Positions 3,156 to 49,210 of a stretch of 64,000 bases of DNA are shown piece after piece (the stretch's first letter is position 1; the number at the start of each line of letters is the position of its first letter). The position numbers and the translations under genes are program-made. The notes beneath the pieces were generated by a model. That model was not told the origin of the DNA. It worked only from the letters and a program-made list of their open reading frames with translations, and did not search any database. The stretch is taken from the NCBI GenBank assembly GCA_015228815.1, contig JADGCV010000007.1, positions 1,583 to 65,582 on the forward strand. The letters are read 5' to 3'. Source of the stretch: Magnetococcales bacterium (GTDB taxonomy: Bacteria; Pseudomonadota; Magnetococcia; Magnetococcales; UBA8363).

Positions 3156-3200
3156 GCTCCATGGTACATCTCTTCATTTTTTGTCGTTCAAACCATCCAC

Positions 3201-10134: not shown

Positions 10135-10812
10135 ATGACTACTTCAAAGAAAACCCGAACTTCCCTTTCCATATTGGCCTGTGCCTCAATGATGGCCGGG
10201 AGTTTGGTCATTCCCACGGAGGTTCGCGCCGATGCCGCGACCGCGACGGTACTCGGGGGGGTGGCGCTTCTCAACTCGTTGTTTCACGCATCGCAGCCGG
10301 TCGAACCCGCGGGGGTCGTGGCCGCTCCCGCCGTGGCGGCGGCTCCAGCAATGCCCATGATGGTCGAACAACCCGCCATGGTCGCTCCGCTTTCCTTTGC
10401 CGCCCCCGTTCCCGTTCCGGTGATGCAACCCTATTCGGTTCCAATGCCGGTGGCGCAACCGGTTCCGGTGCCGGTGGCGCAACCGTATTCAGTCCCGGTG
10501 CCGGTGGCGCAACCGGTTCCGGTTCCGGTGGCGCAACCCTATGCGGTTCCGGTGCCGGTGGCGCAACCGGTTCCGGTGCCGGTGGCGCAACCCTATGCGG
10601 TTCCCGTACCCGTGGCGCAACCGGTGCCGGTGCCGGTGGCGCAACCGTATTCAGTCCCGGTGCCGGTGGCGCAACCGGTTCCGGTACCCGTGGCCCAACC
10701 CTATTCGGTGCCCGTTCCCGTGGTTCAGCCGGTTTCGGTACAGGTGACCACCCGTGTGGTCCAGCCCGTCGTCTCGGCATGCATTCCGGCGGCGACGGTG
10801 GTCTGCCGATAA
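10135..10812 (+). CDS. Secreted Pro/Val/Ala/Gln-rich repeat protein
   Basis: Signal peptide MTTSKKTRTSLSILACASMMAGSLVIPTEVRA, followed by the conserved block DAATATVLGGVALL. About 6 copies of PVPVAQPVPVPVAQPY(S/A)V follow. It is a paralogue of the 11557 gene. Confidence 0.7.
   Translation: MTTSKKTRTSLSILACASMMAGSLVIPTEVRADAATATVLGGVALLNSLFHASQPVEPAGVVAAPAVAAAPAMPMMVEQPAMVAPLSFAAPVPVPVMQPYSVPMPVAQPVPVPVAQPYSVPVPVAQPVPVPVAQPYAVPVPVAQPVPVPVAQPYAVPVPVAQPVPVPVAQPYSVPVPVAQPVPVPVAQPYSVPVPVVQPVSVQVTTRVVQPVVSACIPAATVVCR
10405..10745 (+). repeat. In-frame 54-bp tandem repeat: about 5 good copies (10447-10716) plus degenerate flanking units
   Basis: Unit ccggtggcgcaaccggttccggtgccggtggcgcaacc(c/g)tat(g/t)c(g/a)gt(t/c)ccggtg recurs at 10447, 10501, 10555, 10609 and 10663. 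It encodes the PVPVAQPVPVPVAQPYxV units. Confidence 0.9.
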
Positions 10813-11556: not shown

Positions 11557-11847
11557 ATGAACACTCCATCAAAGACTCGTCGCACCGTCTGGTTGCCGGT
11601 GTGTGCCGCCTTGCTGGCCGCAACCTGGGCCATTCCTCGGAACGTACACGCCGACGCCGTTACCGCTACCGTTCTCGGAGGGGCTGCCCTTTTGGGGAAC
11701 ATCCTGCATTCATCGAGCCACCATCACGGCTATTACGCCCCGCCCCTGGCCCATCCGGTCGCCCCCGTGTACGCGGCTCCGGTGGTCCGGCCAATGGCGG
11801 TTCCCGTCTATCCGGTGGCGCCCTATTATGTCTACTATCCCTACTGA
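11557..11847 (+). CDS. Small secreted Pro/Val/Tyr-rich protein, paralogue of the 10135 gene
   Basis: Signal peptide, then DAVTATVLGGAALL (compare DAATATVLGGVALL in the 10135 gene). The leader ACAAAGAGAAG is similar before both ATGs. The tail is HHHGYYAPPLAHPVAPVYAAPVVRPMAVPVYPVAPYYVYYPY. Confidence 0.65.
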   Translation: MNTPSKTRRTVWLPVCAALLAATWAIPRNVHADAVTATVLGGAALLGNILHSSSHHHGYYAPPLAHPVAPVYAAPVVRPMAVPVYPVAPYYVYYPY

Positions 11848-12538: not shown

Positions 12539-13441
12539 TCAAAAGGGAATTTCAAAAAGCGGGGGCCGTTTTTCGTCCGCCTCCATGTCCACCACCGCCG
12601 CAAGGCGGAATCCGATGTCGGGGCGTTTGGCGGTATGGCGTTCGAAGCCGCGATTGGCGCAGCGGAGCGCCTGCGTTCCATCCTTCCAGCCACCGCCGCG
12701 GATCACCCTGAAGGGGCCCTCCCCGGTGATGGCCGGGTTGTGTTCATCGTGGTTGGCATAGGCGTCGGGACGATAGGTGTCCAGGGTCCATTCCCAGACG
12801 TTGCCGTTCATGTCGCGCAAACCCAGGCGGTTGGCGCGAAGTCTTGCGACGGGATGGGTTGCGTGTGATCCCTTCTCGGCGCTCCAGGCGATCTGGCCAG
12901 GGTCGGCGCGGCCAGCGTAAACGATGTCGTCTCCCCGTTCACGACAGGCGAATTCCCATTCCGCCTCGGTCGGCAGACGGAAGCGGGCCTTTCCCTTGAA
13001 CCGTTCGTTGAGGCTTTCGCTGATCACCTCGGCATCGATCCATGAGACCTGTTCCAATGGATGGTCATCTCCCTTTTGGAACAATGATGGGTTGACCCGC
13101 ATGATCGCCTGCCATTGACCCTGGGTCACTTCGGTTTTTCCGAGCCAGAAGTCGGCGACGCAGGCCGAATGGAGCGGGCCTTCATCGTGTTCCCGCCCCT
13201 CTTTCCAGGGAGGGGAGCCCATCTGGAAACAGCCGCCGGGGACCCAGACAAATCCGATTCCGGTCACCGAATCGGTCCAGTTTTTTCCAGGAACCGGTTC
13301 TTCGTCGCCGCGACGGTCGGCTGTCGGGGGGACCAACCGTTCCCACTCGATGATCATGCTCCCTTCCGCCTCCCGGCATGACGGGAGGGCCAGGCTCCAG
13401 AGGAGGGCCAGAAACGACAGTCTCTGCAAAAAAAGGTTCAT
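12539..13441 (-). CDS. Secreted formylglycine-generating-enzyme-like (FGE-sulfatase/SUMF1 fold) protein
   Basis: Signal peptide MNLFLQRLSFLALLWSLALPSC. Motifs FVWVPGGCFQMGS, TEVTQGQW, RLPTEAEWEFACR, DMNGNVWEW and RVIRGGGW. ATGA start/stop overlap with the upstream gene. Confidence 0.85.
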   Translation of the reverse strand: MNLFLQRLSFLALLWSLALPSCREAEGSMIIEWERLVPPTADRRGDEEPVPGKNWTDSVTGIGFVWVPGGCFQMGSPPWKEGREHDEGPLHSACVADFWLGKTEVTQGQWQAIMRVNPSLFQKGDDHPLEQVSWIDAEVISESLNERFKGKARFRLPTEAEWEFACRERGDDIVYAGRADPGQIAWSAEKGSHATHPVARLRANRLGLRDMNGNVWEWTLDTYRPDAYANHDEHNPAITGEGPFRVIRGGGWKDGTQALRCANRGFERHTAKRPDIGFRLAAVVDMEADEKRPPLFEIPF

Positions 13442-15150
13442 GGATGTTCCCCGCGAAGACGGGTCAGACGGATGGAGGCGGGTTCGGTCAGGAGTCCGTT
13501 CAGGGAGGGACGCCCCGGTTTCAATCGGGAAAGGGCATAATGATACCCCTCATCCAGCGCAACCCAGCCATCCCGGGCGTTTCCCCGGCTGCCATCCGCT
13601 TCGCCCAGCAATCCCTTGATCAGTTCGTAGGTGAAGGCCCCCTGTCGTCCGTGGTCGTTGGCGCCGGGATCCCCATTGAGCGCGGCGACGGCCCAGCCTC
13701 GGGTATCGGCGAAGAATGCGCGGTCCGGCATTTTTTTCTGCCCCAGGAGCCGGGTGCCGCAGGTCCCCTGGCCATGAAAACAGGTATCCAGAATCACCAC
13801 GATTTCCCGGTCGGGCAGATCGCTCAGGAGGTTTTTGATCCGGCGCAGGGAAATCGCCGTTTGCGGGTTGATCGCCAACCCTTCGACCTGGGACGGGAGG
13901 AGCAGGCCATCGTCGAAGCGCGGCGGCTGACTTGCGACCCATGATGCCCCCAATCCCGAAAAATAAAAAAGCAACAGGGCGTTGGGATGGCTTTTACCTT
14001 TGTGCGCCAGCCAGTCCAGGTCGGCCTGGATTGTTTCCAGGGTCGCATCCTCGCCGATGCGCAGGCGGGCATGCTCCGGATCGGGGAAAAAGACTCCGCG
14101 TCGGGTCAGCAGGGTATGCATGTTGGTGGCATCCCGGTCGCCGAAATGGCGCGATTCGATATTCTGGTAACGACCGACGCCAACGAAGAGGGCAAAGGCA
14201 TCCTCGCGTTTGAGCCAGGGATCGAGGGCCGGTTGCGCGGCGATCAGCGAATCCAGTTCCCGGGTTCGGTCGCCAATGTTGCCGCTTTTGGGCCAGGCGC
14301 CGTCCGGGAGTTCCATCGGTGGTGGTATGGCTCCCTTGGGATCGATTTCGGCGACCAGCAGTTGTTCCTTGGCCTTGATGAACAGCAATTCTTCGGGATA
14401 TTCCTTGATCAGAAAATCGACCGCGTTCTTGATGGCGGACAGGTGCTTGCCGGAGCGAAATTCCTGCCATAGATTTTCCACCAGTGCCAGAGCGGCCTGA
14501 TGTTGCCATTCCTTGGGCAGGCTTCCCGGAAGGTGTTCCCGGGAGAGCCAGTCGTAGGCTTCCAGATAACGGGCCATGCGTGACAGCGCCATGTATTTGG
14601 TGTGGGCCAGGGCCATGTTGCCCGGGTACTTTTTGACTCCTTCGAAGGAAAGAAGATGGGCTTCTTCGTCATTGCCCATTTCGAAACGCAGCCAGGCCAG
14701 ATTGGCATGGACCTTCATCGCCAGACGGTCGGTGGGGGGGCGATCCCGTGTCGTCTTGTAAAGATTTTCCCATAGTTCCCGTGCCTTGGGCAGTTGTTTG
14801 TCAAGATACCACGCCAATCCGAGATTGAAATCGAGTTCGGGATCGGTGGGACAGAGATCATGGGCACGGCGGATCGCCGTCAGGGCGAGTTGCCGCTGCG
14901 TGTCGAAACGACCGATCCCTTTCAAGGCGATTTCCCGGGCGACGTTGCAGGAACCCGACAGTTCGGCCCCCCCCAATGAAGGATGGCTCAATGCCGTCAT
15001 GAAACAAACAGCGAAAAAGGCCGTCCTGCGTGTGTACCGGGAGCGACCGAGGGCGCTTCGGTGGGGGACGTTCGCATCCGTGGCAACGGGTTCGGCGGCG
15101 ATGGTTGACATGCGGTCCAGGGCATTCGTTGGCTGTTGGAACGGAATCAA
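13438..15150 (-). CDS. TPR-repeat protein with a C-terminal caspase-fold (peptidase C14/orthocaspase-like) domain; the canonical catalytic His position is Leu
   Basis: N-terminal RRTAFFAVCFMTALS resembles a Tat or Sec signal. A TPR-like region spans aa 70-260. C14 layout: FALFVGVGRYQN...ATNMHTLL...LLLFYFSGLGAS (expected SGHG)...VVILDTCFHGQG (Cys retained). Confidence 0.75.
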   Translation of the reverse strand: MIPFQQPTNALDRMSTIAAEPVATDANVPHRSALGRSRYTRRTAFFAVCFMTALSHPSLGGAELSGSCNVAREIALKGIGRFDTQRQLALTAIRRAHDLCPTDPELDFNLGLAWYLDKQLPKARELWENLYKTTRDRPPTDRLAMKVHANLAWLRFEMGNDEEAHLLSFEGVKKYPGNMALAHTKYMALSRMARYLEAYDWLSREHLPGSLPKEWQHQAALALVENLWQEFRSGKHLSAIKNAVDFLIKEYPEELLFIKAKEQLLVAEIDPKGAIPPPMELPDGAWPKSGNIGDRTRELDSLIAAQPALDPWLKREDAFALFVGVGRYQNIESRHFGDRDATNMHTLLTRRGVFFPDPEHARLRIGEDATLETIQADLDWLAHKGKSHPNALLLFYFSGLGASWVASQPPRFDDGLLLPSQVEGLAINPQTAISLRRIKNLLSDLPDREIVVILDTCFHGQGTCGTRLLGQKKMPDRAFFADTRGWAVAALNGDPGANDHGRQGAFTYELIKGLLGEADGSRGNARDGWVALDEGYHYALSRLKPGRPSLNGLLTEPASIRLTRLRGEHP

Positions 15151-15283: not shown

Positions 15284-16447
15284 TCAATGATCTTTTTCTG
15301 GGATCCGTGCTTCAAGATCGACAACAACGCTTTCGACGCGGTTGTCCCGAAGGAAAGTCAAGACAGGCCTGGGATTGCGATCCCTTGCCCGAAGGAGACG
15401 GACCAGGGAATGGGGGTGGGGCAAAGGGTGGTGGTCCAGGCGAAGGGGTTGATCGCCCGGTTTGAGCCCCCCCCTTTGCGCCGGCGAATCGGGGGTGACT
15501 GCGGTGATGACGATCCGCCCCGCCGTCGCCGATGAAGAAACCGCCTCCAGTTGAACTCCGAGAAGTTGCCGCGGTGTTTCCGTGGGAAGGGACGAAGTTC
15601 CCCAGACAAAATCGGCCCCCCGGTCCGGAAACGGCTGGTCTCGATCATTCCATGGAAGAACCGTCACCATCTCCGCCGCCAGCCCCATGGATGCCAGTTG
15701 ATGCGGGATGCCATGTTTCATCAGGAGATGTCCCGAACCCGCCAGGGCGATGACCTGTCCCCGAGGATGACGCCGTACCCAATCGGCGATGGCCCCGGCC
15801 ATGACCCCGTCCCACAACCGCTGGGCATCGATAAAATTTTCCAGGCTCCCCCCCCGGGCCATCATCGGATGGCTGTCGAACACCGCACGCAACCGTTCCC
15901 GATATTCAGGAAGCGCCGGGGCCAGGACAGGCAATCGATCCAGGAGCATCCGGTCCAGACTGTCAAATCCCCGGGTCCGCACCTGCGACACGACAGCGCG
16001 ATCAATGTTCATGGCCAGCAATGGAACCTTTCGTTCACGGGCCAGACGAAGGATCGGCAGGTAGAGTTCGGCATCAAATCCCCAGGTGAAATACCACGAA
16101 ACGGCATCAAGAAATTCATCCTCCGCCATTCCTCCCGCAACCCATCGGTCAAGTTGTGGCTGAAGATGGCCGGGAAACATTTCCATGGCCAGTGCCACAT
16201 CCCTACCCCGATCCAGCATTTCACCAAGAATCAACCTTTGTACCTCGTGATGCCCCGGATCATCATGGGTTTCCCCAACCAGAACGATTCGCCGCGCCGC
16301 AAGGCGATCCATCAGTTGAACCTGTTCGATCCGGCGACTCCCCTCGATTTCCAGGATTTCTCCCGTTTCGATAAACACGCCACCCATGCCACCCATCCCC
16401 ATGATCTGCAACCAGACCATCATCCCCATCAACGGAAGTATCGCCAT
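15284..16447 (-). CDS. ChaN-family (haem-binding/Tiki superfamily) protein fused to a C-terminal PDZ domain
   Basis: IVLVGETHDDPGHHEVQRLILGEMLDRG...ALAMEMF and VIALAGSGHL are ChaN-like. The C-terminus GRIVITAVTPDSPAQRGGLKPGDQPLRL is PDZ-like. Confidence 0.6.
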   Translation of the reverse strand: MAILPLMGMMVWLQIMGMGGMGGVFIETGEILEIEGSRRIEQVQLMDRLAARRIVLVGETHDDPGHHEVQRLILGEMLDRGRDVALAMEMFPGHLQPQLDRWVAGGMAEDEFLDAVSWYFTWGFDAELYLPILRLARERKVPLLAMNIDRAVVSQVRTRGFDSLDRMLLDRLPVLAPALPEYRERLRAVFDSHPMMARGGSLENFIDAQRLWDGVMAGAIADWVRRHPRGQVIALAGSGHLLMKHGIPHQLASMGLAAEMVTVLPWNDRDQPFPDRGADFVWGTSSLPTETPRQLLGVQLEAVSSSATAGRIVITAVTPDSPAQRGGLKPGDQPLRLDHHPLPHPHSLVRLLRARDRNPRPVLTFLRDNRVESVVVDLEARIPEKDH

Positions 16448-22102: not shown

Positions 22103-22278
22103 CCTGGTCTCTTCGTCCTTTCGCTTCGTTCGGCCATGACGTCCATGATTTCCCCCGATGGATGGCCAATTCAGGAGAAAAGGGAACGATCTGGTCAAGC
22201 GAAAAGTTTAATTCCATGCCCGGAATTGTCCCTCATTCCGGCAAAGTCGTCCACGGAAATCGGTACCGAATGCGGGAG

Positions 22279-26217: not shown

Positions 26218-26221
26218 GGTC

Positions 26222-31868: not shown

Positions 31869-31882
31869 AGAGATGTCGGAAC

Positions 31883-41684: not shown

Positions 41685-41703
41685 ACACCAAGGCAGATAC
41701 CGA

Positions 41704-42543
41704 TCAGACGATCTCTTTGTAAAACAGTCCAGCCACTTTCGAATAAGCCGCGGGAGTAAGGTGAATTTCATTCAACCAATCCGTGCGGTTTGGCATCATC
41801 TCACGGATATCGAGCACCCTGACACGATCCGAGCGTAGCTTGATGAGTTCGTCAGCAAAAGCGTCGATCATCCATTTTATGATCGCATATTGGTCTTTCT
41901 TATATTTGATTCCTTTTTCCTCCATATAGGGCTTGATCCACGACTTTGTTTTGAACAAACCACCCAGGAAGGCTCCACCAATATTGCTCGGAAGGGGATA
42001 GCAATAGGTGTGCGTGATGAGGATACATCTACTGTTGCAATCCATAACATGATCGATCAGTCTCTTGTAAGCCTGGATAATTTTTTCAAGAGTTTTATTG
42101 AATTCCTCTTGATTGATCCACCCCAGGGGATTTCCTGGCGTGGTATTCTGATCATGAAGGAATCGATCCATATCGCCCTCGCCGACGATATCATTCCCAC
42201 CGCCGGAGAAGAGAAAGAAATCAAGCTGTTCATAGTATTTCTCCAGTAGTCGTTTAATTTCACGGAAGCTGGAGCCAGAAAGCATCTTGACCGCTTCATC
42301 TCCAGGACTGGATAGTTGCAGCAAATTAAAATAGGACATCGACGACAGACAATCGACGACATTTGATGGTTGCCCAAAAAACACGGCCCTTCTCGGATAG
42401 GAGAACCAAGAGTCCCCCTCTGCGATGATTGTTTTACAGTGTGACCGGTATTCCAACAAGCAATCAAATTCTCCCTCTGAAACTGTAAAACGATTGGTTG
42501 CAACCAAATGAGTCCGGTTGACTGGATCGATTTCGCATGTCAT
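41704..42543 (-). CDS. SGNH/GDSL-type hydrolase (lipase/esterase fold)
   Basis: Block I IIAEGDSWFSYP, block III FLFSGGGNDIVG, block V-like DWLNEIHLT. Clearly AT-richer than dnaE, which lies 19 nt away in convergent orientation. Confidence 0.65.
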   Translation of the reverse strand: MTCEIDPVNRTHLVATNRFTVSEGEFDCLLEYRSHCKTIIAEGDSWFSYPRRAVFFGQPSNVVDCLSSMSYFNLLQLSSPGDEAVKMLSGSSFREIKRLLEKYYEQLDFFLFSGGGNDIVGEGDMDRFLHDQNTTPGNPLGWINQEEFNKTLEKIIQAYKRLIDHVMDCNSRCILITHTYCYPLPSNIGGAFLGGLFKTKSWIKPYMEEKGIKYKKDQYAIIKWMIDAFADELIKLRSDRVRVLDIREMMPNRTDWLNEIHLTPAAYSKVAGLFYKEIV

Positions 42544-42612
42544 GGTACCCTCCTCTGAATGTCAATTGTATATTACTTAACTGAAAACCATGGAACAACT
42601 ACAACTCAAAAC

Positions 42613-43008
42613 TCACACCCCCCCAGAATTCACGGAACTTTTTGTTTTTGCCTTTTTGGTCCTGGGTTTGCGCCAGCGCAGGGTCACCTTCAACTGCGCT
42701 TCGGCACCCCCTTCGGAGATGAAGGCAACCCCCACCTTGCCATGAAGTTTCAGGCCAAAGGAGACCCGGCACTCCGAGGGATCGCTGGCGCGAAAACGAT
42801 CCACCACCCGTTGCACCACCGGTTGCACCGTCTCCAAGGCTTCCATCACGGTGGTGGAAACCTTGTTGCTGAGGGTCTTTTCTCCCCGAAAGACTGGCCC
42901 GCTTTCTCCCTGCCCGGAAGGGTCATCCAGCAACACCACCTCATCGTCCGCGACTTCCGCGAAAAAAGTTGAGTTTTCATCCAGCTTTATCTCTACGATT
43001 CTGCCCAT
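42613..43008 (-). CDS. Trypco2-like (trypsin-co-occurring domain 2/CU044_2847-type) small protein
   Basis: Start at MGRIVEIKLDENSTFFAEV...GESGPVFRG...MEALETVQPVVQRVVDRF...CRVSFGLKLHGKVGVAFISEGGAEAQLKVTLRWRKP. The C-terminal EFGLKL...A...FKVTLxW pattern matches this family as I remember it. The longer track ORF start at 43227 is unsupported. Confidence 0.55.
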   Translation of the reverse strand: MGRIVEIKLDENSTFFAEVADDEVVLLDDPSGQGESGPVFRGEKTLSNKVSTTVMEALETVQPVVQRVVDRFRASDPSECRVSFGLKLHGKVGVAFISEGGAEAQLKVTLRWRKPRTKKAKTKSSVNSGGV

Positions 43009-43153
43009 CAACAGTCCCTTTCGACAAACCAGCATCTGAAAAACGATCATCATCCGCAAAATGAGGCGTTCTGTCCAGGGTTGTTTCCAAATCGAGGCAG
43101 AGATATGATTCGCATGAAAATGGGAAGGTTTCATCGTACTGGGAGGGGTTCGG

Positions 43154-45097
43154 ATGCCGGTTTCATCAACGTTGCTTTTGGCCGTTACCATGCGCATAAC
43201 GGATGGCCAACCCGTCATCACCTTCAATTCCGGGGATCGCTCCCCCTGGTCCAGGAGACCAGAAGAACCACCGCCGGATCACCGCCGCACGGAACCCCTG
43301 TGGCAATCATTGAGGGGCGACTGGACGAATCGGCGCAACATTCTGCTTCGGGTGGGCAAGGAACTGGCCGACTGGCTGCTGGATGAGGAGGCCCGCAAGA
43401 TCCTGCTTGAGGGGCAACACCCGAATGAGGATGCCCCCCGATGGCGCATCGAATGGTATTTGGACGAAAAATTTTCCCAATGGCCCTGGGAAATCGTGGC
43501 CCTGGACGGTCCGGGTCACCTGGGGGTCCATCCATCCTTCACCTGCGTTCGCAGTCACGAAGGCGAACCTGAGCATCCCCCACTTCCCACGTCGCTGGTG
43601 GTACAACTCCAAGGGGTGCAACTGAAGAAGGAACGGGCCGGATCATGGGCCGTTCTCGATACCGGCAAGGAGTTGGATCGGATTTATAACCAGATCAAAA
43701 ACTCCAGACACGACGGTCGCTTTCGGGTGGAGATGGATGCCCTGGGTCAATGGGGAACCGTATGTAACAAAATGGAAAGAGATGGCCCACCCCATATTTT
43801 TCATTTTGCCGGTCATGGTGTTGAACAGGGTGATGGACTGCTTTTCCTGGACGACCGGGACGGTCCCGACCCCATCGAAACCACCCGCATTGCACAACTT
43901 CTGGCCAACCCCCGCCGTGGCCGTCGTCTCCATCTGGTTTTTCTCAACGCCTGCCGCAGCGCCGGAACCGGCACCCCGACATTGCAACCTTTTGGCGGTC
44001 TCACCCGGCAGTTGCTCAACAAGGGCATTCCCATGGTCGTGGGATTGCTCGCTCCGGTGGAAGACAACGAAGCCGCCGCCCTGGCCACCGAGTTCTACGG
44101 TGCCATAGGAGAAGGCGATTCCGTGGATGTTGCCCTGCAAAAGGCCCGTGAACAGGTTTACATGACCGGCAGTCAGGCAGGATGGGCCTTTTTGACCCTC
44201 TCCCTCCTGGGCCCCCCCCTGCCCCTGATGGCCACACCCCCTCGATCAACCTCCACGCCGGGGGCCACGATTCTGGACTTTGGCTTCGATCAACAGGCCA
44301 AGGCGCTGAAATATTTTCTATTATTGGAGAAACCCCTCGTCATCGTAGTGCGTGGCCAAGAGGGGACGGGACATGAGCATTTCCTGAAGCAGGTTCCCCA
44401 TCTGCTCGAAAGCAAGCGGACATTGTGGAAACCTCTGGTCGGTTTTGAATTTCGCATGGCAGGAGATGCGTCACTCCACCGCCACGAACTTGCAGGTACA
44501 CTGGCCCAGGCCCTGGAAATAGCCGATGACGGCGAACAGAATGTTCTGGAGGCGCGTCTGGCCCGAGGAATTGCCGAACGCTGTGAAACCGGCAAGGTAT
44601 TGGTGTTCCAAATCAATGCAACCATCCTCCTGGAACAGGACCGCCAAGCTGAAGCGCTTCTGGTTCTGGTGCAACACCTATGGATCGCCATCATGACGCA
44701 GGCCATGCGGTTACGTACCCGTCTCCCGGTTTATCTGATCGTGCCCATCGCCACTCCCAAACAGGAAGTGCCGATTTTTGACTGGAAAAAATTGTTGACG
44801 TGGCGCAAGAAGAATGAGCAATTGCGCCTTCATTTCCAGGCCAGTGAAAAACGAATGAACAATCTTATCCAGCGACTCAATACACAGACCTCCCCCGAAC
44901 ATGACGTTCGGGTAGAAATTCTGCCCGCCCTGGAACCTTTTACGCACGACGAGGTGGCGCAATTTCTGGACAAGGCCTTGGCCATGGCCGGGAGCGAACA
45001 CGATGAAGCCCTGGAAAATATCATGGGCATCAACCATGACAACACACGCATTCTTTCCCTTCTGAAGCAAAAAATCGACAACAGGAACGCACGATGA
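43154..45097 (+). CDS. CHAT-domain (caspase-fold) protease with a C-terminal degenerate P-loop-like module
   Basis: GGGAGGGG Shine-Dalgarno upstream. CHAT dyad context PHIFHFAGHG (His221, 43814-43816) and LHLVFLNACRSAG (Cys267, 43952-43954). The C-terminal region has PLVIVVRGQEGTGHEHF, a Walker-A-like motif with His in the Lys position. Confidence 0.8.
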   Translation: MPVSSTLLLAVTMRITDGQPVITFNSGDRSPWSRRPEEPPPDHRRTEPLWQSLRGDWTNRRNILLRVGKELADWLLDEEARKILLEGQHPNEDAPRWRIEWYLDEKFSQWPWEIVALDGPGHLGVHPSFTCVRSHEGEPEHPPLPTSLVVQLQGVQLKKERAGSWAVLDTGKELDRIYNQIKNSRHDGRFRVEMDALGQWGTVCNKMERDGPPHIFHFAGHGVEQGDGLLFLDDRDGPDPIETTRIAQLLANPRRGRRLHLVFLNACRSAGTGTPTLQPFGGLTRQLLNKGIPMVVGLLAPVEDNEAAALATEFYGAIGEGDSVDVALQKAREQVYMTGSQAGWAFLTLSLLGPPLPLMATPPRSTSTPGATILDFGFDQQAKALKYFLLLEKPLVIVVRGQEGTGHEHFLKQVPHLLESKRTLWKPLVGFEFRMAGDASLHRHELAGTLAQALEIADDGEQNVLEARLARGIAERCETGKVLVFQINATILLEQDRQAEALLVLVQHLWIAIMTQAMRLRTRLPVYLIVPIATPKQEVPIFDWKKLLTWRKKNEQLRLHFQASEKRMNNLIQRLNTQTSPEHDVRVEILPALEPFTHDEVAQFLDKALAMAGSEHDEALENIMGINHDNTRILSLLKQKIDNRNAR

Positions 45098-46017
45098 CCT
45101 CCGCGAAACTGCCTCCATTCGACATCTACCGGGGCGACGGCACTCCGCGACCGGAACTGGCGAAACAGATGCCCGAAAGTGGCTTTCTGTTTGCCGAACA
45201 GGGGGCCTACCTGGCCGATGCCGACCTGGTGGAGGCGGTCAACGTCTCCCTGGCGGTGGGACAACCCCTATTGTTGACCGGGGAACCCGGTTGCGGCAAA
45301 ACCCGCCTGGCCGACAGTCTGGCCCTGGAGTTGGGACTTGGGGAGCCGTTGATCTTCCAGACCCGTTCCACCTCCCAGGCCCAGGAGCTGCTTTACACCT
45401 TCGATGCCGTGGGCCGGTTCCACCACATTCAGGTTGGAGACAAACGGGCGGCGGATCCGGTGAACTATGTCCGTTACGGCCCCCTGGGCCAGGCCATTGT
45501 CGAAGGGCGGCGGCGGGTGGTCCTCATCGATGAAATCGACAAGGCCCCCAGGGATTTTCCCAACGATTTGCTCAGCGAGTTGGACCGCATGGTGTTCACG
45601 GTCCATGAACTGGAGGAGCCTACGTGCCGCAAGGCCGGTTCCCACCGTCCTGTGGTGGTGATCACCAGCAACAGCGAACGCCAGTTGCCCCTGGCCTTTC
45701 TCAGGCGCTGCGTCTTTCATCACATTCGTTTTCCCAGCCGGGAACGGCTCGTGGCCATCATTGGCGAACGTTTGCGCGACATGAACCTGGATGGCGGGTT
45801 GGTGGAGGCGGCCGTGGACCGTTTTCAGGAGGTGCGTGGACTCTCCGGCCTGGTGAAAAAACCGGCCACCGGCGAACTTCTGGCCTGGCTCACCGCCCTC
45901 GCCATCCAGGGCAAAACGGTCGATCATGTACGCAGCCCCGCCCTTGCCCGTCTGCCCCTGTGGCAGGCGCTGCTGAAGGATCGCGATGATTTCCGCCGCC
46001 TCCAGGAAGCCGTTTGA
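45094..46017 (+). CDS. MoxR-like AAA+ ATPase
   Basis: Walker A LLLTGEPGCGKTRLA (45280-45303), Walker B VVLIDEIDKA, sensor region VVITSNS, FLRRC. ATGA overlap with the CHAT gene stop. Confidence 0.85.
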   Translation: MTSAKLPPFDIYRGDGTPRPELAKQMPESGFLFAEQGAYLADADLVEAVNVSLAVGQPLLLTGEPGCGKTRLADSLALELGLGEPLIFQTRSTSQAQELLYTFDAVGRFHHIQVGDKRAADPVNYVRYGPLGQAIVEGRRRVVLIDEIDKAPRDFPNDLLSELDRMVFTVHELEEPTCRKAGSHRPVVVITSNSERQLPLAFLRRCVFHHIRFPSRERLVAIIGERLRDMNLDGGLVEAAVDRFQEVRGLSGLVKKPATGELLAWLTALAIQGKTVDHVRSPALARLPLWQALLKDRDDFRRLQEAV

Positions 46018-49000
46018 CGCGCCACTGACCGATCTGCTTCAGGGATTGCGTCATCGTGGACTGGCCATCGGTGTCGATGACGCCCGGCGGGTGGCTCTCG
46101 CCTTCCGCCATTCCGGATCATGGTCGCGGCAGCGGCGGCTGCGAGTACTCAAGAGCCTGTTGGCCAGAAACGACCAGGAGCGCCTGATCATCGATCAACT
46201 GGCGCCGTTCCTGTTCCAGGATGCCCCCCCCGAGGAAACCTTTGTTCCCATCGACCTGCCGAAGGCCCCGGACGCCAAACCCGTCCCGGAACCTAAAACG
46301 CAACCCAGAACGCAACCCAAACCCCACGTCGGTCAACGCAACAAACGACCCCGCCTGGTGCGTTGGTTGGTATTTTTTGCTCTGCTCGCGACGGCCATTG
46401 CCTGGGTAGATTCACAGATCCAACGCCCGGCCCCAGAACCACTGCCTTCCGCCCCGGTTCAACCCGGCCCCAATCAGAAAATGCAGACGAAACTTCCAGA
46501 AGCGCCGACACCCACGGATCTGGAAATGGATACCGACCCTTATCATCCGCCTCGGGAGCCGTTTTTCCTGGGGCTGGCGGTGTCCCTGCTGTTACTGCTT
46601 GCGCCGCTTCCGGGGCTGTTGCGTCGCAAACGGGTTCGACTTCAGAAAAGAAACCTGGAGTCCCTGGAAAAATCCACGGGACACCGCGTTTATCTTCCGG
46701 GAGCGTCCGTTTGTGACCACCTGCGGCCACTTCCCATCGGCCCCTTGCGCGAGGCCGCCTTTCATCTTAACGCCCCCTCGGAACCCATACGCGCGCCCCA
46801 ACTGGACATTCCGAGAAGCATTCTGGCCACGGTGCGCCGGGCGGGCCATCTCACCCTCATCCATGACCAATGGCTGACCCGAAAGCCGGTGTTGTTCATC
46901 GAGGATGTCGCCCCCGGCATGGCCCTTTGGCCCGGATATGGCCGCCAGATTGCCCAGGCCCTGGAGCGGCAGGGCAACCGACTGCTGCACCGATTCATGG
47001 TGGAAGAACCGGGAACGCTCCATGAAGGGGCCAACCTGGAGGGTGGCATGGCCCTGGAACAGGTTCTGGCGAATCTGGGGGGCCCCACGGTGGTCATTCT
47101 TGGCCATGGCGCCTTTTTGGAACATCGACCGGAATACCGACTGGCGAACGCCCCCTGGCTGGGGCTTCTGAACAACGCCGTCTGGCTCCACCCCCAGCCC
47201 CCGGAATTATGGACGGAGGGGATCCGCCTGCTTGCCGGGCGGCTGCGCCTGGTGCCTCTGACCATGGACGGGCTGTCGCGGCTTTCCGGGGTCGCCGCCG
47301 ACAGCATCACCCCCTGGAGGCCACCACCTCCCGCCCTGGATCGTTCCACCCGCCTGGCCAACATGCGCGCCGTGGTCGGGACGGCAGGCTGGCGGTTTTT
47401 GCAGGCAGGGGCGGTGCTGGATCGTGCCGGGGTGCTGACCATGGCCCTATGGCGATCGTTGCCTCTTGAAGGCATTGTTTCGTTGGATGCAACCACCCTG
47501 GAAAAATGCCTGATTCTGGCCGAGCCCGTGCTGGGACCGGGTGGAAAAGTCCGTTTGCCCCCATGGTTTCGAGAAGCCCTTGTCGCGGAGGTGACACGGG
47601 AAGATCCGGCACTCCTGTCCCAGGTGATCCTGTGGGGAGAAAACATTCTTTCTCGCGATCTGCAAACCATCACCGCCAGGGGAACCGCCTGGGTGCAGGC
47701 GCGTCTGGCCCGTATGCGTCTCCTGGTCCTGGATCCGGAACACCGCCCGGAAGCGCGGGAGGCGATGCGCCTTTTTTCCAGGGAAGGATTCGGAGGCTGG
47801 GCCGAAGCGTCCATGGTCGCCGGGGAGCGCGTTCTTTGGCACAAAATTCCTTTGCAACGGGCCAGGCCCCCTGGACGATGGGCCTACGGGTCCGCGTTGA
47901 TCGGTGTGATCGGTATGCTCGTCATGGGAACCGGGTTGGCCAAACCGGATCTGGTGGCCCGCTTGTTTCCCCCGGAGCCTGAATTTCGTTTCCTGACCGA
48001 TACCCCCCCGTGGGCATTACTGACACCGGAAGAACCGTTGCGTTTTTATGATCGCCGGCAACGGAATGGCCCGGTCAGGATTTCCGTGAACGATTGGCCG
48101 GAAACCATCTTGCTCGCGCAACGGGATGTCCAGGGCCGGTGGTACTATGAATTGACTCCCGATGAGCGTCTGTTTTCTGACAATTCACCCTCTTATCTGC
48201 GTCTGGGGTACGGGGACCTTCGTCATGGCCCGTTCGTCTTCTACAGCCTGTCGGGTTTTCCAGTCAAATTGACCGGTATCCGGAATGACAATCAACAAGG
48301 GGTGCAATTTTCCTGGTCCCTGTCGTCCGAAATCACGGATGCCAGCATTCTTTCGTTTCACCTGTACCACTTGGGACGGGAAATTGAAAAACCACCGCCG
48401 AGAACACGGACGTTCCAGACTGCGATCTCCGCGCCAAAAGGGGGTTCCTTCAGGCTTCTCGTCAAAGTTCAAGGTCCGGGAACCGCAACCATGATCTTTC
48501 CCAGCAACCGGTTTGTCATGGATGAATCGCCAGACATGGAATTTGTCCAGATCCCTCCGGGCTGTTTCCAGATGGGTTCACCAAAGACCGATAAAGACCG
48601 GGATGACGATGAAGGTCCGGTGCATAAGGTATGTGTAGACGCTTTCTGGATGGGAAGGTATGAAGTGACGCAAAAGCAGTGGAAAGCCGTGATGGGAACG
48701 AACCCATCCTATTTTGCTTCGTGTGGCGATGAATGTCCCGTGGAGCAGGTTTCCTGGGAAGATGCGCAGGATTTCATTCGCAAGCTCGATAAACAACAGG
48801 ATGGATGTACCTATCGATTGCCGACGGAGGCGGAATGGGAATATGCGTGCCGGTCCGGGGGAAAAAATGAAACCTATTGCGGAGGAAATGATGTAAATCG
48901 GGTGGCCTGGGACAGGACCAACTCTGAAAATACGACTTATAGAGTGGGCGGTAAGGCGCCCAATGGCCTGGGCTTATATGACATGAGCGGAAATGTGTGG

Positions 49001-49210
49001 GAGTGGGTATCGGATTGGTATGACGGAAAGTTCTATGCCAATTCCCCGAGGGACAATCCGAAAGGGCCATCTTCGGGCTCCGCCCGGGTCGGGCGGGGCG
49101 GCGGCTGGGACAGCAACCCAGCCAACGTCCGCTCCGCGTATCGCAACTACGACGGCCCGGGCAGCCGCTACAGCGGCCTGGGCTTCCGCCTTTCGAGGAC
49201 TTGCCCTTAG
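45986..49210 (+). CDS. 1074-aa three-TM protein: N-terminal helical domain, CoxE-like vWA domain with degenerate MIDAS, and extracytoplasmic C-terminal FGE-sulfatase-like domain
   Basis: Overlaps the moxR-like gene by 32 nt. TM helices lie at about aa 124-141, 192-212 and 634-652. LDIPRSILATVRRAGHLTLIHDQW..KPVLFIEDVAPGM follows the CoxE-type vWA pattern, with DVSGSM replaced by DVAPGM. The C-terminus has FVQIPPGCFQMGS, RLPTEAEWEYACR, DMSGNVWEW and RVGRGGGW. Confidence 0.75.
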   Translation: MISAASRKPFDAPLTDLLQGLRHRGLAIGVDDARRVALAFRHSGSWSRQRRLRVLKSLLARNDQERLIIDQLAPFLFQDAPPEETFVPIDLPKAPDAKPVPEPKTQPRTQPKPHVGQRNKRPRLVRWLVFFALLATAIAWVDSQIQRPAPEPLPSAPVQPGPNQKMQTKLPEAPTPTDLEMDTDPYHPPREPFFLGLAVSLLLLLAPLPGLLRRKRVRLQKRNLESLEKSTGHRVYLPGASVCDHLRPLPIGPLREAAFHLNAPSEPIRAPQLDIPRSILATVRRAGHLTLIHDQWLTRKPVLFIEDVAPGMALWPGYGRQIAQALERQGNRLLHRFMVEEPGTLHEGANLEGGMALEQVLANLGGPTVVILGHGAFLEHRPEYRLANAPWLGLLNNAVWLHPQPPELWTEGIRLLAGRLRLVPLTMDGLSRLSGVAADSITPWRPPPPALDRSTRLANMRAVVGTAGWRFLQAGAVLDRAGVLTMALWRSLPLEGIVSLDATTLEKCLILAEPVLGPGGKVRLPPWFREALVAEVTREDPALLSQVILWGENILSRDLQTITARGTAWVQARLARMRLLVLDPEHRPEAREAMRLFSREGFGGWAEASMVAGERVLWHKIPLQRARPPGRWAYGSALIGVIGMLVMGTGLAKPDLVARLFPPEPEFRFLTDTPPWALLTPEEPLRFYDRRQRNGPVRISVNDWPETILLAQRDVQGRWYYELTPDERLFSDNSPSYLRLGYGDLRHGPFVFYSLSGFPVKLTGIRNDNQQGVQFSWSLSSEITDASILSFHLYHLGREIEKPPPRTRTFQTAISAPKGGSFRLLVKVQGPGTATMIFPSNRFVMDESPDMEFVQIPPGCFQMGSPKTDKDRDDDEGPVHKVCVDAFWMGRYEVTQKQWKAVMGTNPSYFASCGDECPVEQVSWEDAQDFIRKLDKQQDGCTYRLPTEAEWEYACRSGGKNETYCGGNDVNRVAWDRTNSENTTYRVGGKAPNGLGLYDMSGNVWEWVSDWYDGKFYANSPRDNPKGPSSGSARVGRGGGWDSNPANVRSAYRNYDGPGSRYSGLGFRLSRTCP

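What the first reader, a model, noticed from the sequence alone, without database searches (positions are those of the whole stretch)
12539..15150. Second caspase-fold plus FGE-like gene pair, apparently exported: a recurring module
The TPR-orthocaspase-like gene and the secreted FGE-like gene are translationally coupled by an ATGA overlap at 13438-13441. Both have N-terminal export signals. The first contains TRRTAFF, which is reminiscent of a twin-arginine motif. The same caspase-fold/FGE-fold pairing recurs at 43-49 kb with a different architecture. Two independent instances within 64 kb argue for a functional partnership rather than chance adjacency.
Basis: partly seen in the sequence, partly recalled or inferred. 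Interest (0 to 1): 0.65.

Follow-up and report, generated by a model that had tools for sequence, protein, structure and literature searches.

The report
Split periplasmic caspase-like/FGE-like gene pair
Two tightly coupled genes encode an exported caspase-family protein that has lost its catalytic histidine and an exported, non-catalytic FGE-fold partner; every sampled Magnetococcales genome keeps them together, and they are the two-gene form of a known fusion protein of unknown function.

Summary
On the minus strand, gene A (13438-15150) encodes a signal peptide, a TPR-like helical domain and a Peptidase_C14 domain. Gene B (12539-13441) encodes a signal peptide and an FGE-sulfatase-fold domain. 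They overlap by ATGA.

The window is from a Magnetococcales genome. B lies directly downstream of A in 36 of 36 informative related loci, with stop and start abutting or overlapping in 33. The partnership is therefore not chance.

It is also not new as a domain pairing. Ten of the 80 metagenome loci most similar to B carry a C14 domain, fused in eight and adjacent in two. C14-FGE-sulfatase fusions were reported in 2012. The window pair is a split, TPR-bearing variant.

- B lacks the two catalytic cysteines of true FGEs. It resembles PvdO and TvpA, so it is most likely a binding module.
- A has Leu at the catalytic His position, as do most orthologs, while the catalytic Cys and an S1-pocket Asp are invariant. 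It is most likely not a conventional protease.

The twin-arginine resemblance is not conserved. The 43-49 kb locus is a different, already described kind of system: a MoxR/vWA-type conflict system with a CHAT protein and a membrane-anchored FGE-like domain. Biochemical function remains inferred.

The parts
13438..15150 (-). Gene A: exported protein with a TPR-like helical domain and a Peptidase_C14 (caspase-family) domain. The longest ORF starts at TTG 15150; the likely start is the ATG at 15111 (557-aa database gene call).
   Evidence: P0001 is 100% identical, 557 aa; PF00656, 1.6e-12; AF2 model plus Foldseek: MALT1, GSU0716, caspase-1, metacaspase 9, TPR proteins.
14965..15111 (-). Signal peptide of A (M14 to about A62). 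It contains TRRTAFF (15013-15033) and the hydrophobic core FFAVCFMTAL.
   Evidence: A hydrophobic core 9-19 residues before the invariant Cys is present in 37 of 37 orthologs. RR is not conserved (6 of 37).
14251..14949 (-). TPR-like all-helical domain of A. It holds the most conserved motifs of the protein (LAHTK, RYLEAYDW) and two invariant Cys (C55 and C87 in P0001 numbering).
   Evidence: helices 49-256 of the model; these motifs were the scan patterns.
13441..14211 (-). Peptidase_C14 domain of A, comprising the p20 part and what by motif looks like a p10-like part (GRQGAFTY; motif reading from my own knowledge).
   Evidence: (NF047832 caspase, 1.4e-12).
13951..13953 (-). Leu codon (L400 of the 570-aa ORF) at the position of the catalytic His (FSG-L-G instead of SGHG).
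   Evidence: In one search the family consensus 'lfYfsGlg' aligns with 'FFHYSGHG' of T. brucei MCA2, and the Leu column falls on its active-site-motif His (H158 by my numbering of the construct).
13759..13782 (-). The segment C-F-H-G-Q-G-T-C: the invariant catalytic-position Cys (C457; the preceding D455 of the D-x-C motif lies just upstream at 13786-13788) and a second, near-invariant Cys 7 residues later (C464).
   Evidence: Secreted C14-FGE fusions lack the second Cys.
13438..13452 (-). Coupling junction: a Shine-Dalgarno-like GGGGAA (13447-13452) inside the last codons of A, followed by ATGA (13438-13441), which is the start of B overlapping the stop of A.
   Evidence: Orthologous junctions are 0 nt in 21 loci, -4 in 12, and -1, +2 and +9 in one each. 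A GGAG(G) formed by the conserved C-terminal G-G-E codons is visible in most of the printed junctions.
12539..13441 (-). Gene B: exported FGE-sulfatase-fold (C-type-lectin-like) protein without the FGE catalytic cysteines.
   Evidence: (PF03781, 6.8e-48), (AF2 pLDDT 88.4; best matches PvdO at 1.5e-20 and TvpA).
13358..13441 (-). Signal peptide of B (about residues 1-28), followed by the conserved mature N-terminal motif h-h-x-E-W-E (MIIEWER here).
   Evidence: an AxA-type signal peptide is followed directly by [FLM][LI][IV]xEW[ED] in the listed orthologs, and W33 is at least 95% conserved. The window's Cys22 ('LALPSC') is not conserved, so this is not a lipoprotein family.
12599..13252 (-). 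FGE-sulfatase-fold domain of B (residues 64-281) with four invariant Cys (C71, C94, C166, C261).
43154..45097 (+). Separate system, component 1: a CHAT (caspase-fold) protein with an uncharacterised C-terminal half of about 300 aa. No signal peptide or TM segment was found.
   Evidence: (PF12770, 4.5e-20), (no Pfam hit for the C-terminal half).
45094..46017 (+). Separate system, component 2: a MoxR-like AAA+ ATPase that overlaps both neighbouring genes.
   Evidence: AAA_5, 1e-10; MadB-type AAA, 4e-22, below cutoff.
45986..49210 (+). Separate system, component 3: a 1074-aa membrane protein with three predicted TM segments and a C-terminal FGE-like domain (residues 852-1069) predicted to face the periplasm. 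Its N-terminal 850 aa belong to a family in which some members score as CoxE-type vWA.
   Evidence: 46% identical to B; 7 of 37 homologs hit VWA_CoxE; 11 of 37 carry FGE-sulfatase; others carry OmpA, TIG, FHA and so on.
41704..43227 (-). Separate system, divergent neighbours: a GDSL/SGNH-type hydrolase (41704-42543) and a Trypco1-domain protein (42613-43227).
   Evidence: Lipase_GDSL, 6.6e-05; Trypco1, 3.3e-20.

Best explanation
Genes A and B form a self-contained, translationally coupled operon for a two-subunit periplasmic module. It is the split (two-gene) form of the widespread secreted 'signal peptide - Peptidase_C14 - FGE-sulfatase-fold' proteins.

B is not a formylglycine-generating enzyme. 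It is a C-type-lectin-like binding subunit in the manner of PvdO, TvpA and the 'FGS' domains, and it recognises a conserved ligand, most likely endogenous.

A contributes a TPR protein-interaction platform and a caspase-fold domain. The substrate-binding S1 pocket and the Cys of that domain are intact, but in this genome and in most Magnetococcales the catalytic His has been replaced. A therefore most likely acts as a peptide-binding pseudo-protease, or through His-independent Cys or disulfide chemistry, rather than as a conventional endopeptidase. In the few lineages that keep His, such as M. marinus MC-1, it may still cleave after Arg or Lys.

Shown: gene structure, export signals, folds, missing catalytic residues, order-wide synteny and coupling, and the existence of fusions. 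Inferred: physical complex, ligand binding, lack of proteolysis, and a housekeeping envelope role.
For: - B lies directly downstream of A, on the same strand, in 36 of 36 loci where the contig continues (35 species-level loci; computed).
- The stop/start junction is 0 nt in 21 loci, -4 nt in 12, and -1, +2 and +9 in one each. A GGAG(G) Shine-Dalgarno-like element lies inside A's conserved C-terminal G-G-E codons.
- Only A-B is constant. fba sits directly upstream in 27 loci but not in the window's clade, and the window's own flanking genes are not found in any relative.
- Fusion evidence: 10 of the 80 metagenome loci most similar to B carry C14, fused N-terminal to the FGE-like domain in 8 and adjacent in 2. 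Eight of the ten fused ORFs show a signal-peptide-like N-terminus and all have an intact His and Cys. About 560 kb of control DNA held no additional C14 hit unlinked to an FGE-like gene. The literature reports 33 of 671 metacaspases fused to FGE-sulfatase (PMC3501461).
- B lacks the FGE Cys pair. The same is true of 79 of 80 B-like domains and all nine C14-fused domains listed. Its structural neighbours are PvdO and TvpA. Its C-terminal region is conserved rather than hypervariable.
- In A, Leu aligns with the active-site His of TbMCA2. The His-site residue is L in 27 of 37 sequences, H in 4, W in 3, and R and Q in one each. The Cys is invariant in the 37-sequence set and in A2, and the Asp aligned to TbMCA2 D95 is invariant in A1 and A2 but Asn in one ortholog, L020.
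- Both proteins have export signals in 37 of 37 orthologs, and both have invariant Cys pairs of the kind typical of oxidised periplasmic proteins.
Against: - No direct evidence of a physical A-B complex; no multimer prediction or experiment could be run.
- No ligand or substrate has been identified.
- The nearest non-Magnetococcales C14 relatives of A (3 of 3 examined) have no FGE neighbour, so this particular A subfamily is paired only within one order.
- The invariant Cys could mean residual or alternative catalysis, so 'pseudo-protease' is not proven. Some C14 proteins act independently of their catalytic residues, and the reverse cannot be excluded.
- The enrichment estimate rests on a similarity-selected sample of 80 loci and a small control.
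Confidence: 0.6

Rival explanations
1. The pair is an extracytoplasmic arm of an anti-invader conflict system in the sense of Kaur and Aravind. B is a lectin-fold sensor of phage or foreign molecules, and A is the caspase effector that it triggers. The pair might work in trans with the MoxR/vWA/CHAT system at 43-49 kb.
For: FGS (FGE-like) domains are proposed invader sensors and caspases are common effectors in such systems (PMC7159879, PMC8195603). B and the FGE-like domain of the 43-49 kb system belong to the same non-catalytic subfamily (46% identity). Secreted C14-FGE fusions can occur in tandem arrays (three in L087), which looks like diversification.
Against: A-B is single-copy and present in every sampled Magnetococcales species. 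It is mostly fixed next to fba, accA and dnaE. No NTPase, EAD or DGR component is adjacent. B has a conserved C-terminal region and no variable region. The effector's catalytic His is lost in most lineages. PADLOC gives only a generic caspase hit for A and nothing for B. The 43-49 kb system is absent from the equivalent position in other genomes.
Confidence: 0.12
2. B is a genuine formylglycine-generating, or otherwise oxidising, enzyme. It post-translationally modifies a Cys, either of a sulfatase or of A's invariant active-site Cys.
For: B matches PF03781 strongly. Asplund-Samuelsson et al. speculated that proteolysis and formylglycine modification act together. A keeps an invariant Cys even where His is lost. 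PvdO, B's closest structural match, is named an oxidising enzyme ('dihydropyoverdine dehydrogenase') by NCBIfam although, to my knowledge, it too lacks the FGE cysteines.
Against: The two Cu-binding catalytic cysteines (C-x4-C) of true FGEs are replaced by K..DG.T in B, and they are absent in all B orthologs and in the C14-fused relatives listed. No CxPxR motif surrounds A's Cys (DTCFHGQGTC). No sulfatase gene was found among the neighbours scanned.
Confidence: 0.07
3. A is still an active protease that uses another general base, for example the near-invariant H347 or the invariant H170 of the LAHTK motif (P0001 numbering). B acts as its substrate-recruiting or inhibitory subunit.
For: The Cys, an S1-pocket Asp and most of the C14 core are under strong purifying selection after the loss of His. 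Other conserved His residues exist. His-bearing and His-less forms are clear orthologs with the same partner.
Against: To my knowledge, replacing the dyad His abolishes activity in characterised caspases and metacaspases. The replacement residues are chemically diverse (L, W, R, Q), which indicates relaxed constraint at that site rather than a new catalytic arrangement. H347 and H170 are equally conserved in His-bearing orthologs, so there is no compensatory pattern.
Confidence: 0.15
4. The adjacency is incidental: two unrelated exported proteins that happen to be neighbours, with a trivial 4-nt overlap.
For: Four-nucleotide overlaps are common in compact bacterial genomes. The nearest non-Magnetococcales relatives of A lack an FGE neighbour.
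Against: The adjacency is conserved in 36 of 36 loci down to about 40% protein identity, while the flanks change. Gene fusions of the same two domains in the same order are frequent (PMC3501461).
Confidence: 0.02

Closest known systems
Secreted Peptidase_C14-FGE-sulfatase fusion proteins (a 'metacaspase-FGE-sulfatase' architecture; Asplund-Samuelsson et al. 2012, PMC3501461; also noted in archaea, PMC6426788)
   Same: The same two domains occur in the same N-to-C order. An N-terminal export signal is present. The FGE-like domain lacks the catalytic Cys pair. B's closest metagenome relatives include such fusions (L045 at 46% identity, L046 at 41%).
   Different: Here the module is split into two genes, each with its own signal peptide. 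A carries an extra TPR-like domain of about 250 aa. The catalytic His is lost, whereas all the fusions examined keep YAGHG. A has a family-specific second Cys 7 residues after the active-site Cys. The function of the fusions themselves is unknown.
Pseudo-orthocaspases (Klemencic et al. 2019, PMC6426788)
   Same: A C14 p20 domain with a broken His-Cys dyad, conserved across a lineage and presumed proteolytically inactive, possibly with a housekeeping role.
   Different: The described pseudo-variants mostly replace both residues (Tyr-Ser, Phe-Ser). They are concentrated in Rhizobiales and Cyanobacteria. Here only His is replaced (by Leu, Trp, Arg or Gln) and Cys is invariant. The protein is exported and has an obligate FGE-fold partner.
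PvdO (periplasmic pyoverdine maturation protein; PDB 5hha) and TvpA (T. denticola DGR variable protein; PDB 2y3c)
   Same: They are the best structural and sequence matches of B. Both have the FGE fold. To my knowledge, both also lack the FGE catalytic cysteines and PvdO is periplasmic.
   Different: B scores far below the PvdO equivalog cutoff (82.7 against 500 bits). No pyoverdine genes are nearby. B has no DGR and no variable region.
MoxR-vWA ternary conflict systems with FGS effectors and caspase-type peptidases (iSTAND-type; Kaur et al. 2020, PMC7159879; related DGR-linked loci in bioRxiv 10.1101/2023.09.22.558884)
   Same: This is the best description of the 43-49 kb locus: a MoxR-like AAA gene, a membrane-anchored protein from a CoxE-type-vWA-related family with a C-terminal FGE-like domain, a CHAT protein, and Trypco1 and hydrolase neighbours.
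   Different: The 12.5-15.2 kb pair has no NTPase, vWA or EAD component and is a conserved core-genome unit. For the 43-49 kb locus, the iSTAND domain and the window protein's own vWA domain could not be shown directly, and no DGR lies within the window.
Formylglycine-generating enzyme (SUMF1 / bacterial FGE)
   Same: Fold and Pfam family.
   Different: The Cys pair that binds Cu(I) and performs catalysis is absent, and no sulfatase substrate is nearby.

Membership tests
Peptidase C14 (caspase/metacaspase/orthocaspase) as an active protease | Caspase-haemoglobinase fold and a Pfam PF00656 match above the gathering score | tested here: met
   (48.1 bits against a cutoff of 21.4, on the isolated domain). 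(Foldseek: MALT1 at 1.4e-06, GSU0716, procaspase-1, metacaspase 9).
Peptidase C14 (caspase/metacaspase/orthocaspase) as an active protease | Catalytic His of the His-Cys dyad (SGHG motif) | tested here: not met
   Leu in the window (FSGLG). Across 37 orthologs the residue is L in 27, H in 4, W in 3, and R and Q in one each. The position is fixed by alignment to the active-site His of TbMCA2 (H158 by my numbering).
Peptidase C14 (caspase/metacaspase/orthocaspase) as an active protease | Catalytic Cys (D-x-C motif) and the S1-pocket Asp residues for basic P1 | tested here: met
   The Cys and the preceding Asp are invariant. The Asp of R-D-A aligns with TbMCA2 D95 and is invariant in A1 and A2, though Asn in one ortholog, L020. 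The role of D95 and D211 in the S1 pocket is from my own knowledge of the TbMCA2 structure.
Pseudo-orthocaspase (Klemencic 2019 definition: p20 domain lacking the conserved HC dyad) | At least one dyad residue is substituted while the fold is retained | tested here: met
   The definition is in PMC6426788. The substitution type (Leu-Cys) differs from the common Tyr-Ser.
Formylglycine-generating enzyme (FGE/SUMF1) | FGE-sulfatase fold / PF03781 | tested here: met
   (6.8e-48).
Formylglycine-generating enzyme (FGE/SUMF1) | The two catalytic, Cu(I)-binding cysteines (C-x4-C after the RGGS motif) | tested here: not met
   In one search, the 'LCHDSYC' segment of S. coelicolor FGE aligns with 'K..DG.T' of B. 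The pair is absent in all 37 B orthologs (only four conserved Cys, none at these positions) and in 79 of 80 B-like metagenome domains.
Formylglycine-generating enzyme (FGE/SUMF1) | A sulfatase (CxPxR) substrate gene nearby | tested here: not met
   The neighbours scanned are ChaN-PDZ, an HD protein, an unassigned 162-aa ORF, and NadA. In other genomes the neighbours are fba and accA. The whole genome was not searched.
Twin-arginine (Tat) exported protein | A Z-R-R-x-hydrophobic-hydrophobic motif before a hydrophobic core, recognised by Tat-signal models and conserved in orthologs | tested here: inconclusive
   T-R-R-T-A-F fits the relaxed motif, and the n-region is long (30 aa from M14). However, RR is adjacent to the core in only 6 of 37 orthologs and a Tat-like motif occurs in 2 of 37. 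Pfam and NCBIfam scans gave no Tat-signal match. TatP and SignalP were not available.
Secreted C14-FGE-sulfatase fusion architecture | Signal peptide, then C14, then a non-catalytic FGE-like domain in that order | tested here: met
   Gene order A then B, with a signal peptide on each. The fusions have the same order.
Secreted C14-FGE-sulfatase fusion architecture | Both domains in one polypeptide | tested here: not met
   There is a stop codon between A and B in the window and in all 36 orthologous loci. This is a split variant.
MoxR-vWA ternary conflict system, iSTAND type (applies to 41.7-49.2 kb) | A MoxR-type AAA+ ATPase gene in the operon | tested here: met
   (AAA_5 at 1e-10). The gene overlaps both neighbours (45094-46017).
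MoxR-vWA ternary conflict system, iSTAND type (applies to 41.7-49.2 kb) | A vWA (CoxE-type) component with a variable C-terminal effector, often FGS, sometimes with TM segments | tested here: inconclusive
   The FGS domain and three TM segments are present. The window protein itself gives no vWA hit. Its N-terminal 850 aa do have 85 homologs, and of the 37 aligned members scanned (the window protein included) 7 hit VWA_CoxE while the C-termini vary (FGE in 11, plus OmpA, TIG, FHA, Calx-beta and others).
MoxR-vWA ternary conflict system, iSTAND type (applies to 41.7-49.2 kb) | A third component: an inactive STAND NTPase with an N-terminal peptidase or EAD | tested here: inconclusive
   The N-terminal CHAT domain is present. 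The C-terminal 297 aa have no Pfam match. A degenerate Walker-A-like 'GQEGTGHEHF' is visible by eye only.
NTP-dependent conflict system (applies to the 12.5-15.2 kb pair) | An adjacent NTPase, EAD or DGR component, and patchy, variable distribution | tested here: not met
   None was found among the neighbours scanned. No TR/VR repeat was found. The pair is present in all 36 informative loci. PADLOC gave only a generic caspase hit.

The most novel reading that the evidence does not exclude
The A-B pair is an order-wide, housekeeping periplasmic complex in which a caspase-fold domain has been repurposed for non-proteolytic work. It would keep its Arg/Lys-binding pocket and use an invariant Cys-x6-Cys pair, Cys444 and Cys451 in P0001 numbering, as a redox switch, a disulfide latch or a covalent-capture site. 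The lectin-fold partner would deliver a conserved envelope ligand. That would be a new biochemical role for caspase homologues, in bacteria that live at the oxic-anoxic interface.
Probability: 0.2. Interest if true: 0.65.

Novelty: new variant of a known kind. Interest (0 to 1): 0.4.

Why it matters
Caspase homologues fused to FGE-sulfatase-fold domains are one of the commonest bacterial metacaspase architectures, yet no function is known for them. The name invites the wrong idea that formylglycine formation is involved.

This locus offers a natural dissection of that architecture. The two domains are separate polypeptides made in coupled fashion. The FGE-fold part is demonstrably non-catalytic. 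The caspase part comes in orthologous His-bearing and His-less versions with the same partner, some of them in cultured strains (M. marinus MC-1 and MO-1).

That makes a concrete question testable: does the module need proteolysis at all, or is the caspase fold used for binding? The analysis also separates this conserved envelope module from the superficially similar caspase-plus-lectin conflict system that sits 28 kb away in the same window.

Tried and rejected
- **Full-length Pfam scan of A.** It returned no Peptidase_C14 hit. Scanning the C-terminal domain alone recovered it, so the earlier absence was an artefact of the filters.
- **Lipoprotein reading of B.** 'LALPSC' looks like a lipobox, but the Cys is not conserved in any ortholog. 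Rejected.
- **Tat export.** Pfam and NCBIfam scans gave no Tat-signal match, even on isolated N-termini, and RR is not conserved. Tat export may hold for the window's subclade but is not a family feature.
- **Recent duplication between the two FGE-like domains in the window.** Rejected. The 43-49 kb domain is closer (52-58% identity) to non-Magnetococcales proteins than to B orthologs.
- **DGR diversification.** No template-like repeat of either FGE-like 3' region exists in the window.
- **Direct detection of vWA and iSTAND domains in the 43-49 kb proteins.** Pfam found nothing at E up to 10. A profile search against the PDB matched only the FGE part. The only support is indirect, through homologs.
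- **Looking for FGE neighbours of the nearest non-Magnetococcales relatives of A.** None in 3 of 3.
- **Regex search for B's N-terminal 'EWE' motif in the fusion linkers.** The pattern was too restrictive and the result was uninformative.
- **Promoter and terminator scan of 12.2-15.5 kb.** Nothing above the shuffled background.
- **Cluster look-ups for organism names of locus-2 homologs.** No names were returned.
- **Exact look-up of the CHAT protein.** Not on record with my chosen start codon.

Full report
**What is in the sequence**

On the minus strand, an ORF at 13438-15150 (570 aa from TTG) is followed by an ORF at 12539-13441 (300 aa). The start of the second overlaps the stop of the first as ATGA at 13438-13441. 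A GGGGAA element lies five bases upstream of that start. The public gene call for the first protein starts at the ATG at 15111 and gives 557 aa (P0001). No other in-frame start precedes the hydrophobic core.

Gene B scores PF03781 FGE-sulfatase at 6.8e-48. Gene A gave only sub-threshold TPR hits when scanned whole. Its C-terminal 255 residues scanned alone match Peptidase_C14 at 1.6e-12, 48 bits against a cutoff of 21.4. NCBIfam and PADLOC caspase models also hit.

AlphaFold2 models built on ortholog alignments are confident: 85.6 pLDDT for A and 88.4 for B. Foldseek places A's C-terminal half with MALT1 paracaspase, the bacterial caspase-like GSU0716, procaspase-1 and metacaspase 9, and its N-terminal half with TPR proteins. 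It places B closest to PvdO (1.5e-20) and TvpA, then true FGEs and PorK. The observation of a TPR plus caspase-fold gene coupled to an FGE-fold gene is therefore correct.

**Whose genome, and is the pairing more than chance**

All 41 homologs of A are from Magnetococcales, including M. marinus MC-1 and MO-1. A scan of one genome per GTDB species found 35 loci, all Magnetococcales. The FGE-like gene lies immediately downstream on the same strand in every one of the 36 loci where the contig continues; two loci are truncated.

The distance between A's stop and B's start is 0 nt in 21 loci, -4 nt (ATGA or GTGA) in 12, and -1, +2 and +9 in one each. The conserved C-terminal G-G-E codons of A form a GGAG(G) element upstream of B's start in most of the printed junctions. 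The coupling signal is thus written into A's coding sequence.

Only A-B is constant. fba lies directly upstream in 27 loci, often preceded by accA and dnaE. This is not so in the window's own clade, and none of the window's flanking genes (ChaN-PDZ, an HD protein, a 162-aa ORF) is found next to the pair in any relative. The pair moves as a unit.

**Relation to fusion proteins**

I scanned metagenome contigs with the B alignment and kept the 80 most similar loci. I then searched their ORFs with a C14 profile built here.
- Eight loci encode the C14 and FGE-like domains in one ORF, with C14 first. One contig (L087) carries three such genes in tandem.
- Two more loci have a C14 gene just upstream.
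- Eight of the ten fused ORFs begin with a signal-peptide-like N-terminus, and all keep YAGHG and D-x-C.
- L042, the locus of one of B's nearest stand-alone relatives, has a frameshifted secreted C14 gene 0.5 kb upstream.
- About 560 kb of control DNA (Magnetococcales flanks, the rest of the window and loci L040-L044) contained no further C14 hit unlinked to an FGE-like gene.

This agrees with the literature. FGE-sulfatase is the fifth commonest partner domain of prokaryotic metacaspases, found in 33 of 671 (PMC3501461). It is also seen in archaeal orthocaspases (PMC6426788).

The window pair is therefore best read as a split, two-gene version of a known secreted fusion. By Rosetta-stone logic, this supports a direct functional and probably physical partnership. 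The nearest non-Magnetococcales relatives of A's own C14 subfamily have no FGE neighbour, so this particular split form is confined to one order.

**Two corrections to the labels**

First, B is not a formylglycine-generating enzyme. The S. coelicolor FGE segment 'RGGSYLCHDSYC', which contains the two catalytic Cu-binding cysteines, aligns with 'RGGGWK..DG.T' in B. B orthologs share only four invariant cysteines, at other positions. The Cys pair is also absent from all nine C14-fused domains listed and from 79 of 80 B-like domains overall. B's C-terminal region is conserved rather than hypervariable, and the window holds no DGR template repeat.

Second, A lacks the catalytic histidine. The family consensus 'lfYfsGlg' aligns with 'FFHYSGHG' of T. 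brucei metacaspase MCA2, which puts Leu on the active-site His, H158 by my numbering of the construct. Across 37 orthologs this site is Leu in 27, His in 4 (including MC-1), Trp in 3, and Arg and Gln in one each. The Cys of D-x-C is invariant and a second Cys seven to eight residues later is nearly invariant. The Asp that aligns with MCA2 D95, which is part of the S1 pocket to my knowledge, is invariant in the two main alignments and is Asn in a single ortholog, L020. A neighbour-joining tree groups the His-bearing forms. Leu occupies the large clades, and Trp is nested within a Leu clade.

By the published definition, A is a pseudo-orthocaspase (PMC6426788). It is an unusual one, however, because only His is replaced and the Cys is strictly kept.

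**Export**

Both proteins have N-terminal hydrophobic signal sequences in 37 of 37 orthologs. Those of B end in AxA-type sites followed by a conserved mature N-terminus of the form h-h-x-E-W-E. Invariant cysteine pairs in both proteins fit an oxidising periplasmic location; this is an inference.

TRRTAFF is present and fits a relaxed twin-arginine pattern, and the n-region is long. Against Tat export, RR next to the hydrophobic core occurs in only 6 of 37 orthologs and a Tat-like motif in 2 of 37. Pfam and NCBIfam scans gave no Tat-signal match. Tat export cannot be excluded for the window's subclade, but it is not a property of the family. The lipobox-like LALPSC in B is not conserved.

**The second locus (41.7-49.2 kb)**

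This locus comprises:
- a GDSL-type hydrolase and a Trypco1 protein on the minus strand;
- a CHAT protein (43154-45097);
- a MoxR-like AAA+ ATPase (45094-46017);
- a 1074-aa protein with a C-terminal FGE-like domain (45986-49210).

The large protein has three predicted TM segments, with a basic stretch after the second. This topology places the FGE-like domain in the periplasm, whereas the CHAT protein has no export signal.

The N-terminal 850 residues have 85 homologs. Of 37 aligned sequences (36 homologs plus the window protein), seven match VWA_CoxE. The C-termini vary: FGE-sulfatase in 11, and OmpA, TIG, Calx-beta, FHA and cytochrome c in others. This matches the iSTAND-type MoxR-vWA ternary conflict systems of Kaur et al. 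2020, in which FGS is the commonest effector on a CoxE-type, sometimes membrane-anchored vWA component and caspase-like domains sit on the third component (PMC7159879). It also matches the related loci with Trypco1 and peptidase neighbours in bioRxiv 10.1101/2023.09.22.558884.

I could not show the vWA domain in the window protein itself, nor the iSTAND domain in the CHAT protein. Membership is therefore probable but not proven.

The two FGE-like domains in the window are 46% identical. The one in the large protein is closer to non-Magnetococcales proteins (52-58%) than to B orthologs. C14 and CHAT share no detectable sequence similarity. The two loci are thus independent uses of the same two folds, not one recurring module. 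In locus 2 the two folds are not expected to touch.

**Most likely mechanism**

My best reading has confidence of about 0.6 for the architecture and less for the biochemistry. A and B are made in coupled, near-stoichiometric fashion, exported separately, and assemble in the periplasm. B acts as a lectin-fold binding subunit for a conserved ligand. A provides a TPR platform and a caspase-fold domain that still binds a basic peptide segment. In most lineages A no longer hydrolyses that segment. The retained Cys, together with the family-specific second Cys, may serve a disulfide or redox role or a capture role.

The strict conservation, single copy, core-genome neighbourhood and absence of any NTPase, EAD or DGR component argue for a housekeeping envelope function rather than a defence function. 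The rivals are:
- a periplasmic immune sensor-effector pair (0.12);
- an alternative-base active protease (0.15);
- a genuine Cys-modifying enzyme (0.07);
- chance adjacency (0.02).

**Novelty and score**

The domain pairing, the non-catalytic 'FGS' interpretation and the pseudo-orthocaspase concept are all published. Four things are new here:
- the order-wide split operon with conserved translational coupling;
- the TPR extension;
- the His-only loss with an invariant Cys;
- the natural His-bearing versus His-less ortholog series with the same partner.

This is a new variant of a known kind, and function remains inferred. Interest is 0.4.

Noticed in passing
window 38154-49210, compared with L003 and L004: In other Magnetococcales, dnaE is followed by accA, fba and then the A-B pair. 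In this window, dnaE (38154-41684) is followed instead by the GDSL / Trypco1 / CHAT / MoxR / FGE-like conflict locus. accA and fba are absent from the whole 64 kb, and A-B sits about 25 kb away. The conflict island occupies the ancestral site of the pair.
   Followed up: partly
window 13447-13452, and the orthologous junctions in L008-L035: The Shine-Dalgarno-like element for gene B is formed by the conserved C-terminal Gly-Gly-Glu codons of gene A. This is a dual coding and translation-signal constraint. It may explain why A's last residues (R-L-T-R-x-G-G-E) are so conserved.
   Followed up: partly
window 10135-10812 and 11557-11847 (+ strand): Two small exported proteins have related N-termini (49% identity). 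The first carries a Pro/Val-rich tandem repeat (AQPVPVPVAQPYSVPVPV), with a 54-nt period repeated 6.3 times at 10408-10746. No family match was found.
   Followed up: partly
window 15284-16447 (- strand): This gene encodes a ChaN/Tiki-type haem-binding domain fused to a C-terminal PDZ domain, with weak similarity to the MamE/DegP PDZ. It lies directly upstream of gene A, but this neighbourhood is not conserved in any relative.
   Followed up: partly
window 24835-33526 (- strand): A Pel-type exopolysaccharide cluster: PelG (1.4e-124), a PelF-like GT4 glycosyltransferase with DUF3492, a TPR plus cNMP-binding protein, a GAF-domain protein, and two ORFs with no Pfam match.
   Followed up: no
window 21155-22198 (- strand): A PD-(D/E)XK family transposase gene (PF12784, 3.9e-27) lies between queG-like and chemoreceptor genes. 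It is a possible marker of local rearrangement.
   Followed up: no
L087 1439-6660 and 9246-10268 (metagenome contig Ga0114922_10000544): Three tandem genes each encode signal peptide, C14 and an FGE-like domain. A fourth, stand-alone C14 gene lies 2.6 kb further on. This is a paralogous array of the fused form of the module.
   Followed up: partly
L042 2028-4870 (ENA contig ctg35781): Outside Magnetococcales, a secreted C14 gene with an intact His and Cys, split by an apparent frameshift (2028-2510 and 2495-3556), lies 0.5 kb upstream of a stand-alone FGE-like gene. The mature N-terminus of that gene (IDLEWRP) resembles the conserved EWE motif of B.
   Followed up: partly
window 13441-15150 (protein A): Technical note. 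hmmscan of the full-length protein against Pfam reported no Peptidase_C14 match at E up to 0.01, although the isolated domain scores 48 bits. Two orthologs in the database likewise carry no precomputed PF00656 hit (P0002, P0034). Domain-based surveys may under-count this family.
   Followed up: yes
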